DNA of 64,000 bases from the NCBI RefSeq assembly GCF_057098645.1, contig NZ_CM169472.1; one strand, given 5' to 3'. Positions 1 to 372 of the stretch are shown here, piece by piece. The stretch's first letter is position 1, and the number at the start of each line of letters is the position of its first letter. The position numbers were made by a program.

Positions 1-372
1 GTGAAGTGCGGCACCCCGTAGGTTGGATAAAGCGGTCACGCCGCATCCGACATCTAACGCCCGAGCCGGTTGCCTGATGCGACGCTGGCGCGTGTTATCA
101 GGCCTACACCGCTGTGAAGTGCTCCACCCCGTAGGTCGGATAAGGCGGTTACGCCGCATCCGACATCCAACGTCCGAGCCGGTTGCCTGATGCGACGCTG
201 ACGCGTCTTATCAGGCCTACACCGCTGTGAAGTGCGGCACCCCATAGGTTGGATAAGGCGGTTACGCCGCATCCAACATCTAACGCCCGAGCCGGTTGCC
301 TGATGCGACGCTGGCGCGTCTTATCAGCATACGCCACATCCGGCATACCATGCCGGATGTGGCACATCATTA

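What the first reader, a model, noticed from the sequence alone, without database searches (positions are those of the whole stretch)
1..362. Triplicated ~113-bp REP-containing unit plus a perfect 14-bp-stem hairpin downstream of mqo
Three tandem copies of a 113-bp unit differ by only a few substitutions, implying recent amplification, and are followed by a perfect palindrome abutting the mqo stop. The nrdA-nrdB spacer (35236..35540) likewise holds an exactly duplicated ~86-bp REP unit. These arrays may affect mRNA 3'-end stability and are plausible hotspots for unequal recombination.
Basis: seen in the sequence. Interest (0 to 1): 0.2.

Follow-up and report, generated by a model that had tools for sequence, protein, structure and literature searches.

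The report
Known REP array and terminator hairpin
This is the E. coli O145 version of REP161, a well-known kind of repetitive palindromic spacer between the ecotin and mqo genes, followed by a unique hairpin already mapped in K-12 as a two-way transcription stop; it is ordinary, although its repeat number does vary widely between strains.

Summary
Window 1-339 holds 2.9 tandem copies of a 113-bp unit, followed by a perfect 14-bp-stem, 3-nt-loop hairpin (333-363) that ends 6 nt from the mqo stop. The window starts 6 nt after the eco stop, so it holds nearly the whole convergent eco-mqo spacer.

Each unit is an inverted Y REP, a linker, a Z2 REP and a second linker, which is the textbook BIME-2 layout. 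This locus is REP161 in K-12. Rfam calls the units naRNA4.

Repeat number varies. About 63% of 5,426 complete E. coli genomes have 1 unit and about 37% have several (3 to 8 seen, possibly 12; K-12 has 6).

The "recent amplification" reading fails here. Each O145 unit is closer to a unit in another strain than to its neighbours, all O145 genomes share the 3-unit allele, and another Escherichia species has a similar array.

The hairpin is single-copy in 5,404 genomes, and its K-12 version is listed as an eco:mqo bidirectional terminator.

At nrdA-nrdB the unit is 88 bp in 2.9 copies. The exact duplicate is missing from every complete O145 genome listed, so that gain is recent or an assembly error.

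Everything fits known REP/BIME biology, so interest is low.

The parts
1..113 (+). BIME-2 unit 1: linker 1-17, inverted Y palindromic unit 18-52, head-to-head linker 53-70, Z2 palindromic unit 71-107, linker 108-113
   Evidence: TRF and the repeat finder; BLAST to published Y and Z2 consensus sequences; coordinates checked; Rfam naRNA4 58.3 bits at 21-104, just below the gathering score of 59.5
114..226 (+). BIME-2 unit 2: inverted Y 131-165, linker 166-183, Z2 184-220
   Evidence: Rfam naRNA4 75.3 bits at 134-217; closest relative is K-12 unit 4, 2 differences in 100 nt
227..327 (+). BIME-2 unit 3: inverted Y 244-278, linker 279-296, Z2 297-327 with a degenerate tail (CAGCATAC in place of CAGGCCTAC)
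   Evidence: Rfam naRNA4 61.9 bits at 247-329; in Escherichia sp. E1V33 the same Z2 keeps an intact GTAGGCC tail
333..363 (.). Single-copy palindromic hairpin with a 14-bp perfect stem and 3-nt loop. On the mqo-sense RNA the stem extends to 18 bp (329-367) through two G-U pairs. Probable bidirectional terminator and 3'-end structure for mqo and eco
   Evidence: RNA folds of -29.2 kcal/mol (mqo sense, 18 bp) and -27.8 kcal/mol (eco sense, 14 bp), z = -4.6 and -8.7; one copy per genome in 5404 of 5426 genomes, always beside mqo; the K-12 ortholog is listed as an eco:mqo bidirectional terminator; the arm at 330-345 matches the Y-unit head at 15 of 16 positions
370..372 (-). mqo stop codon (TAA on the - strand), 6 nt from the 14-bp stem and 2 nt from the extended stem
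   Evidence: RefSeq annotation of the identical O145 sequence: mqo CDS at L001 2870-4516, which is window 370 onwards
97..107 (+). Exact natural IS621 target ATCAGGCCTAC in the Z2 tail of unit 1; a second copy lies at 210-220 in unit 2
   Evidence: 7 copies in the window, 0.05 expected; target sequence from PMC11208160; a natural IS621 insertion at this position of the same array in NZ_AP027764.1
35240..35527 (+). nrdA-nrdB BIME-2 array: (Y+ 10-nt linker Z2- 6-nt linker) x 3, then a partial Y. Period 88. The first Y starts 8 nt after the nrdA stop (35229-35231)
   Evidence: naRNA4 hits on the - strand at 35288-35358 and 35376-35446
12119..12315 (.). rcsB-rcsC BIME-2 array (Z2-, Y+, Z2-, Y+), period 114, 1.9 copies. 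The rcsC stop codon lies in the tail of the last Y unit
   Evidence: the K-12 orthologs of these hairpins (REP162) are listed as bidirectional terminators

Best explanation
Window 1-369 is the E. coli O145 allele of REP161. It is a BIME-2 type cluster of repetitive extragenic palindromes that fills the spacer between the convergent genes eco (ecotin) and mqo, and it ends in a locus-specific hairpin.

Shown here:
- The array is three copies of inverted Y unit, 18-nt linker, Z2 unit, 23-nt linker.
- The hairpin is a separate, single-copy element present in essentially all E. coli and in at least one other Escherichia species.
- Copy number at this locus runs from 1 to at least 8 units across E. 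coli.

Inferred from published K-12 data and from work on the sister array REP325:
- The hairpin marks where mqo transcripts end, just after the stop codon, and where eco read-through transcripts end. It probably works as a U-tract-less bidirectional terminator helped by collisions between converging RNA polymerases, and it gives both mRNAs a stable 3' stem-loop.
- The Y and Z2 hairpins lie only in the eco 3' UTR. There they most likely act as partial terminators and as barriers to 3'-to-5' exonucleases, so eco 3'-UTR length scales with unit number.
- At the DNA level the units are the known substrates for gyrase, for the REP-associated transposase, and for IS621.
- Unit number changes by unequal homologous exchange or replication slippage between the 113-bp repeats (88-bp repeats at nrdA-nrdB).
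For: Architecture: Y and Z2 units alternate in orientation at 18-52/71-107, 131-165/184-220 and 244-278/297-327. This fits the published BIME-2 definition of z2 plus y units in multiple tandem copies whose number varies between strains (PMC3333891).

Rfam naRNA4, which models the Y-l-Z2 unit of REP325, scores 75.3, 61.9 and 58.3 bits against a gathering score of 59.5.

Position: the eco stop lies 6 nt before window base 1, and mqo is convergent.

Polymorphism:
- Flank-only BLAST spacer lengths in 59 sampled genomes were 148-150 bp (37 genomes), 375-378 (4), 602-604 (4), 715-717 (13) and 838 (1).
- An inter-unit junction is present at 95% identity or more in about 2,006 of 5,426 genomes, with a median of 5 and a maximum of 11 junctions per genome.
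- Alleles were dissected unit by unit.
- A 'small expansion of REP161' was reported between two laboratory K-12 derivatives (PMC4982283).

Hairpin: one copy per genome in 5,404 genomes. It folds strongly on both strands. The K-12 ortholog at 2305063-2305108 is listed as an eco:mqo bidirectional terminator and associated with REP161. The collision-plus-stem-loop mechanism comes from bioRxiv 10.1101/2022.10.23.513370.

Against: No transcript data exist for this O145 strain. The terminator call is from K-12, where the stem is 18 perfect pairs. Here it is 14 perfect pairs, or 18 with two G-U pairs on the mqo strand only.

No canonical intrinsic terminator (stem followed by a T run) is found on either strand, so termination would have to use a non-canonical route.

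The single-unit allele is the commonest (about 63%), which argues that extra units are not required for anything essential.
Confidence: 0.82

Rival explanations
1. The array is a neutral or selfish passenger. It consists of REP doublets spread and kept by the REP-associated transposase and expanded by slippage. It has no effect on eco or mqo, and only the hairpin matters to the host.
For: About 63% of genomes manage with one unit and the number drifts from 1 to at least 8. At nrdA-nrdB, 31% of genomes have no REP at all. REP161 was predicted to be a RAYT-associated REPIN (bioRxiv 10.1101/2024.07.17.603846). Genome-wide, terminal REPs do not lengthen mRNA half-lives.
Against: At least one unit is kept in every allele examined. 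An array of about 3 units persists in another Escherichia species. REP325, which has the same architecture, measurably alters expression of its neighbours.
Confidence: 0.35
2. The hairpin, which lies 2-6 nt after the mqo stop, and the first Y unit, which lies 8 nt after the nrdA stop, act mainly on translation. A terminating ribosome is stalled by a stable structure within 15 nt of the stop codon, the mRNA is cleaved, and output of the upstream protein falls.
For: PMC12306157 summarises Liang, Rudd and Deutscher 2015: REPs fewer than 16 nt from a stop codon stall ribosomes and lower translation, with the nrdAB REP transcript as a reported case. The distances were measured here: 6 nt for mqo and 8 nt for nrdA.
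Against: The mqo hairpin is not a canonical REP, and nothing has been measured for mqo. The mobilome preprint does not count REP161 among the REPs within 15 nt of an upstream gene. This mechanism can coexist with termination and does not replace it.
Confidence: 0.3
3. The units encode naRNA4-like nucleoid-associated RNAs. They would be transcribed from the eco promoter and, together with HU, bridge cruciform-forming REPs to condense the chromosome.
For: The Rfam naRNA4 hits lie on the eco-sense strand. The model was proposed for REP325 in PMC4550694. REP161 DNA was protected from exonuclease under stress.
Against: [quoted passage not shown] The Rfam model also hits the antisense strand of the nrdA-nrdB array and the rcsB-rcsC array, so it detects any Y/Z2 pair and not a specific gene.
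Confidence: 0.06
4. This is the first reader's view: the eco-mqo triplication is a recent amplification private to this lineage.
For: The copies are in perfect 113-bp register with no indels.
Against: Units within the array differ at 5-9 of 100 sites, yet each has a relative 1-3 differences away in another strain. The allele is identical in the O145 genomes checked. A comparable array exists in Escherichia sp. E1V33.
Confidence: 0.03
5. The third exact 88-bp unit at nrdA-nrdB (35415-35502) is an assembly error in the source genome and not a real expansion.
For: All 26 complete O145 genomes listed have a span 88 bp shorter (673 against 761; allele comparison). Exact tandem repeats are a classic place for mis-assembly.
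Against: The 3-unit allele exists in unrelated complete genomes (H169-H174; L015). Changes of this kind are documented at such loci.
Confidence: 0.15

Closest known systems
REP161 of E. coli K-12 (eco-mqo BIME-2 cluster, EcoCyc name)
   Same: It is the same locus, with the same flanking genes, unit sequence, linkers and terminal hairpin.
   Different: K-12 has 6 units in a 714-bp spacer, including two pairs identical over the first 100 nt compared (u1=u2, u3=u5). This O145 strain has 3 diverged units in 375 bp. The K-12 hairpin stem is 18 perfect pairs. Here two positions (AC in place of GT) cut it to 14 pairs on the eco-sense RNA and give two G-U pairs on the mqo-sense RNA.
REP325 / naRNA1-6 (yjdM-yjdN BIME-2, Rfam RF02564)
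   Same: It has the same architecture of tandem Y-linker-Z2 units. Units here score at or near the Rfam gathering threshold. REP325 is the experimentally dissected example of a combined terminator and mRNA stabiliser.
   Different: REP325 lies between tandem genes in one operon, whereas this array lies between convergent genes and has an extra unique terminal hairpin. The linkers differ, and the inter-unit junction of this array occurs nowhere else in K-12 (5 places, equal to its 5 junctions).
Overlapping bidirectional terminators between convergent genes (SEnd-seq class; Ju et al. 2019 as cited in bioRxiv 10.1101/2022.10.23.513370)
   Same: It is a palindromic stem-loop in the gap between convergent genes and lacks an intrinsic-terminator U-tract. 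The K-12 ortholog is in the list of 306 such sites.
   Different: It has not been measured in this strain. One side (eco) must first cross a 340-nt REP array.
Canonical Rho-independent terminator
   Same: It has a GC-rich, stable stem-loop immediately 3' of a coding sequence.
   Different: There is no T/U run after the stem on either strand, and the scan finds no terminator-like site.

Membership tests
BIME-2 (REP cluster family of E. coli) | Built from Y and Z2 palindromic units, not Z1 | tested here: met
   BLAST to the Y, Z1 and Z2 consensus sequences quoted in PMC11208160. Z2 matches at 97-100% over 30-36 nt at 72-107, 185-220 and 298-327. Y matches at 88-96% at 25-49, 131-162 and 251-274. 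Z1 matches only the 10 nt it shares with Z2.
BIME-2 (REP cluster family of E. coli) | [quoted passage not shown] | tested here: met
   Y units are on the - strand and Z2 units on the + strand, with linkers of 18 and 23 nt, in three copies. The definition is from PMC3333891.
BIME-2 (REP cluster family of E. coli) | No long L linker with an IHF site, which would define BIME-1 | tested here: met
   The IHF consensus WATCAANNNNTTR does not match on either strand of 1-372, nor in the nrdA-nrdB or rcsB-rcsC spacers.
BIME-2 (REP cluster family of E. coli) | Extragenic, at the 3' ends of genes | tested here: met
   It lies between the stop codons of convergent eco and mqo.
BIME-2 (REP cluster family of E. 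coli) | [quoted passage not shown] | tested here: met
   One to at least 8 units across E. coli genomes.
BIME-2 (REP cluster family of E. coli) | Bound and cleaved by DNA gyrase in vivo (Espeli and Boccard 1997, cited) | not testable with these tools
   This needs quinolone-induced cleavage mapping or gyrase ChIP.
Rfam RF02564 naRNA4 | Covariance-model score at or above the gathering threshold of 59.5 bits | tested here: met
   75.3 bits (134-217) and 61.9 bits (247-329) pass. Unit 1 (21-104) scores 58.3, just below.
Rfam RF02564 naRNA4 | Expressed as a discrete RNA that binds HU and condenses DNA | not testable with these tools
   No expression data are available here. The function itself is disputed. 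The model also hits the antisense strand of nrdA-nrdB, so a hit does not imply that function.
Bidirectional terminator between convergent genes | Stem-loop-encoding palindrome in the gap between convergent genes | tested here: met
Bidirectional terminator between convergent genes | Overlapping 3' ends of both transcripts mapped at the site | not testable with these tools
   This is reported for the K-12 ortholog only.
Canonical intrinsic terminator | GC-rich stem followed by a T run | tested here: not met
   No terminator-like sites were found on either strand of L001 2300-3100. The tails are GTATGCTG (mqo sense) and ACATCATT (eco sense).
Natural IS621 (IS110 bridge recombinase) target | 11-nt target ATCAGGCCTAC with a CT core | tested here: met
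   Exact matches at 97-107 and 210-220. A natural IS621 copy sits at this position of the same array in NZ_AP027764.1. The target sequence is from PMC11208160.

The most novel reading that the evidence does not exclude
Unit number in these arrays acts as a heritable, quickly changing dial on gene expression. At eco-mqo it would set eco 3'-UTR length, and so ecotin and possibly Mqo output. At nrdA-nrdB it would set the NrdA:NrdB ratio. Alleles would then differ functionally between lineages: eco-mqo units 1, 3 and 6 in O157:H7, O145 and K-12, and nrdA-nrdB arrays of 0-3 units. The private 88-bp gain in this strain would be a fresh regulatory mutation.
Probability: 0.15. Interest if true: 0.35.

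Novelty: already known. Interest (0 to 1): 0.12.

Why it matters
It matters little as a discovery. REP/BIME arrays, their copy-number polymorphism, their effects on mRNA 3' ends and this particular hairpin have all been described.

The survey here does add useful numbers:
- REP161 has one unit in about 63% of complete E. coli genomes and several in about 37%.
- The adjoining hairpin is invariantly single-copy.
- 31% of E. coli lack any REP in the nrdA-nrdB spacer, even though that spacer was the model for REP-mediated translational control.

These natural allele series are ready-made material for testing whether REP number tunes expression. The arrays also carry exact natural targets for the IS621 bridge recombinase.

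Tried and rejected
- Canonical promoter and terminator scan of the spacer: nothing found.
- Rfam search at a permissive E-value: only naRNA4 plus chance microRNA hits on the hairpin.
- K-12 RefSeq record: no REP features are listed in this copy, so the REP161 name comes from papers.
- Liang et al. 2015 (by DOI and PMC id) and Liang and Deutscher 2016 (by PMC id) could not be retrieved. Their result is cited second-hand through PMC12306157.
- The supplements of PMC3333891 are not held.
- An exact-pattern scan for the hairpin in one-genome-per-species contigs returned only Escherichia sp. E1V33. The E. coli type-strain sequence fetched here (L008) also fits the pattern but was not returned, so absence elsewhere cannot be concluded.
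- A first Python fuzzy-regex PU scan timed out and was replaced by blastn-short.
- ORFs across the array are mechanical, and none is annotated in RefSeq.
- My first frame for the rcsC end was off by one and was corrected.
- The IHF-site test that would indicate BIME-1 was negative.

Full report
**1. What is in the sequence**

Tandem Repeats Finder reports a 113-bp period, 2.9 copies, 92% matches and score 577 at window 1-327. The repeat finder places the copies in register at 1-113, 114-226 and 227-339, with no indels, the second and third being 92% and 87% identical to the first. It also finds one inverted repeat, with arms at 333-346 and 350-363, 14 nt long, 100% complementary and 3 nt apart. 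This is the only perfect stem of 14 bp or more with a 3-8 nt loop in the 64-kb window, where 0.0014 are expected from base composition.

**2. Where it is**

Window 1-1200 is 100% identical to several E. coli O145 chromosomes. In the annotated record NZ_CP031353.1, eco (ecotin, + strand) ends 6 nt before window base 1. mqo (- strand) has its stop codon at window 370-372. The window therefore holds almost the whole 375-bp spacer between two convergent genes, and the array is not cut off by the window edge. RefSeq annotates nothing in the spacer.

**3. Anatomy**

I compared the sequence with the three published E. coli REP consensus sequences (Y, Z1 and Z2, quoted in PMC11208160). Each unit proves to be a linker, an inverted Y palindromic unit, an 18-nt linker, a Z2 palindromic unit and a second linker:
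- Y units lie at 18-52, 131-165 and 244-278.
- Z2 units lie at 71-107, 184-220 and 297-327.
- The last Z2 has a degenerate tail (CAGCATAC in place of CAGGCCTAC).

Y and Z2 units in alternating orientation, in multiple tandem copies and without an IHF-site linker, match the published definition of a BIME-2 (PMC3333891). Rfam matches each unit to RF02564 naRNA4, a model built on the Y-l-Z2 unit of REP325. The scores are 75.3, 61.9 and 58.3 bits against a gathering score of 59.5. The same model hits the rcsB-rcsC array, and it hits the nrdA-nrdB array on the strand antisense to nrdAB. It therefore works as a general detector of Y/Z2 pairs.

In the K-12 literature this locus is called REP161.

**4. 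The hairpin is a separate element**

A 58-nt query centred on the hairpin finds exactly one place per genome in 5,404 of 5,426 complete E. coli genomes, always next to mqo. It is therefore not a dispersed repeat, although one arm resembles the head of a Y unit at 15 of 16 positions.

Folding results:
- mqo-sense RNA folds to -29.2 kcal/mol with an 18-bp stem that includes two G-U pairs.
- eco-sense RNA folds to -27.8 kcal/mol with a 14-bp stem.
- In K-12 the stem is 18 perfect pairs on both strands.

No T run follows the stem on either strand, and the terminator scan finds nothing.

A supplementary table of a 2026 preprint (bioRxiv 10.64898/2026.03.23.713779) overlays a published set of 306 bidirectional terminators on REP annotations. 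It lists the K-12 ortholog (2305063-2305108, 18-bp stem, -33.4 kcal/mol) as an eco:mqo site detected in log phase and associated with REP161. The source set is almost certainly the SEnd-seq study of Ju et al. 2019. That attribution is my inference, supported. The same laboratory showed that such sites need a nascent stem-loop plus head-on and trailing RNA-polymerase collisions (bioRxiv 10.1101/2022.10.23.513370).

It has not been done in this strain.

**5. Copy number among strains at eco-mqo**

A query made only of the two flanks lets the hit span give the spacer length. In an evenly spaced sample of 59 genomes:

| Spacer (bp) | Units | Genomes |
|---|---|---|
| 148-150 | 1 | 37 |
| 375-378 | 3 | 4 |
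| 602-604 | 5 | 4 |
| 715-717 | 6 (includes K-12 MG1655) | 13 |
| 838 | 7 | 1 |

A query made of the inter-unit junction exists only where two or more units are present. It hits about 2,006 of 5,426 genomes (37%) at 95% identity or more. A further 253 weaker hits are only the eco-proximal edge of single-unit alleles. The median is 5 junctions per genome and the maximum is 11. Counts of 2 to 7 junctions appear in the listed rows, which means 3 to 8 units. K-12 has exactly 5, so the junction is specific to this locus.

In 49 genomes the flanks lie more than 1,250 bp apart. One example has an IS621 element inside the array. A Stx1c prophage is reported integrated at eco-mqo in one O146:H21 strain (PMC12113909). 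A 'small expansion of REP161' was reported between two laboratory K-12 derivatives (PMC4982283). The hot-spot idea is therefore supported.

**6. The eco-mqo triplication is not recent**

Over the first 100 nt, the three O145 units differ from one another at 5-9 sites. Each has a much closer relative in another strain:
- Unit 1 differs from the single O157:H7 unit at 1 site.
- Unit 2 differs from K-12 unit 4 at 2 sites.
- Unit 3 differs from K-12 unit 6 at 3 sites.

The O145 genomes checked carry the identical allele. Escherichia sp. E1V33 has the same hairpin followed by 2.9 units of 113 bp. The units are therefore old positional paralogues in an array that expands and contracts. The O157:H7 single unit reads like O145 unit 1 joined to the end of unit 3, which is what a 226-bp collapse would produce. 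K-12, in contrast, does contain fresh duplications: units 1 and 2, and units 3 and 5, are identical over the 100 nt compared.

**7. The nrdA-nrdB spacer**

The repeat has an 88-bp period and 2.9 copies at 97%. Its layout is Y+, a 10-nt linker, Z2-, a 6-nt linker, three times over, followed by a partial Y. The first Y starts 8 nt after the nrdA stop. Units 2 and 3 are identical over 81 of 88 positions and diverge only in the final linker.

In a sample of 59 genomes the spacer lengths were 88 bp (20 genomes), 145-146 (11), 189 (4), 226 (3) and 233-234 (21). The window's spacer is 321 bp. All 26 complete O145 genomes listed, including those identical to the window at eco-mqo, are 88 bp shorter. 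The window equals the O145 RM9872 allele plus one extra unit. This is a genuinely recent gain or an assembly error. A few unrelated strains have an independent 3-unit allele.

The 88-bp allele contains no REP at all. It holds a different G-rich palindrome and occurs in 1,684 of 5,426 genomes. That is worth noting because the nrdAB REP transcript is cited among those subject to translational down-regulation by REPs within 15 nt of a stop codon (Liang et al. 2015, as summarised in PMC12306157).

**8. How it most likely works**

Shown here: the identity and structure of the parts, their positions relative to the two stop codons, their conservation, and their copy-number behaviour.

Inferred:
- The hairpin ends mqo transcripts 2-6 nt past the stop codon and halts eco read-through, leaving both mRNAs with a stable 3' stem-loop.
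- The Y and Z2 hairpins lie only in the eco 3' UTR. By analogy with REP325, they act as partial, partly Rho-dependent terminators and as exonuclease barriers. [quoted passage not shown]
- Unit number changes by unequal exchange or slippage between repeats.

A further effect on Mqo and NrdA translation through ribosome stalling is plausible but untested for mqo. The nucleoid-condensing naRNA4 model (PMC4550694) is now disputed by a preprint whose authors include Sankar Adhya. A largely neutral, selfish status for the extra units cannot be excluded, since one unit suffices in most strains.

**9. Verdict**

This is a correct observation of an already known element: REP161, a BIME-2, plus a known terminator hairpin. 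The inference of recent amplification is wrong for the main locus and right for the secondary one. Novelty: already known. Interest: low.

Noticed in passing
L009 (NZ_AP027764.1) 734-2501; window 97-107 and 210-220: One E. coli genome has an IS621 element (IS110-family bridge-RNA recombinase) inserted in the Z2 tail of unit 1 of this same array, at TTATCAGGCCT|IS|AC. This is the published natural target ATCAGGCCTAC. The window holds 7 exact copies of that 11-mer, all in REPs, against 0.05 expected.
   Followed up: yes
window 35415-35502: The third 88-bp nrdA-nrdB unit is absent from all 26 complete O145 genomes listed, including those identical to the window at eco-mqo. It is either a private recent duplication or an assembly error in the source genome.
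   Followed up: partly
L010 697-784 (allele of window 35232-35552): 1,684 of 5,426 E. coli genomes (31%) have an 88-bp nrdA-nrdB spacer with no REP at all. It carries a different G-rich palindrome (CCCCTCTCCCCTTGCGGGAGAGGGTTAGGGTGAGGGG). Other strains have different PU types (189-bp and 226-bp alleles). This matters because nrdAB is the published model for REP-dependent translational control.
   Followed up: partly
window 12281-12315: The rcsC stop codon (TAG, - strand, 12314-12312) lies inside the GGCCTAC tail of a Y palindromic unit, so the REP overlaps the coding sequence. The rcsB-rcsC spacer (12119-12330) is a third BIME-2 array, and its K-12 hairpins (REP162) are also listed as bidirectional terminators.
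   Followed up: partly
L006 (strain ES5) 702-830: The first unit of this 7-unit allele is 121 nt because the duplication carried along AAACTGCC, the sequence just after the eco stop. The crossover point appears to be a CGCT microhomology shared by the eco 3' end (TTCGCT) and the inter-unit linker (ACCGCT).
   Followed up: no
L016 (Escherichia sp. E1V33) 421-784: Another Escherichia species has the same mqo-proximal hairpin (loop variant GGGT) and about 3 units of 113 bp. Its last Z2 keeps an intact GTAGGCC tail, which suggests the E. coli CAGCATAC tail is a later decay.
   Followed up: partly
window 28394-28476: There is a further isolated Z2/Y pair, with another exact IS621 target at 28420-28430. 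From K-12 gene order and the REP163 row it probably lies in the ubiG-yfaL spacer, but I did not check its flanking genes.
   Followed up: no
window 8369-8462: MicF sRNA scores 116.8 bits in Rfam, as expected upstream of ompC. It is ordinary and is noted only for orientation.
   Followed up: no
eco-mqo spacer (literature): The eco-mqo spacer is reported as a Stx1c prophage integration site in O146:H21 strain 2013C-3033 (PMC12113909). This may account for some of the 49 genomes whose flanks lie more than 1,250 bp apart.
   Followed up: no
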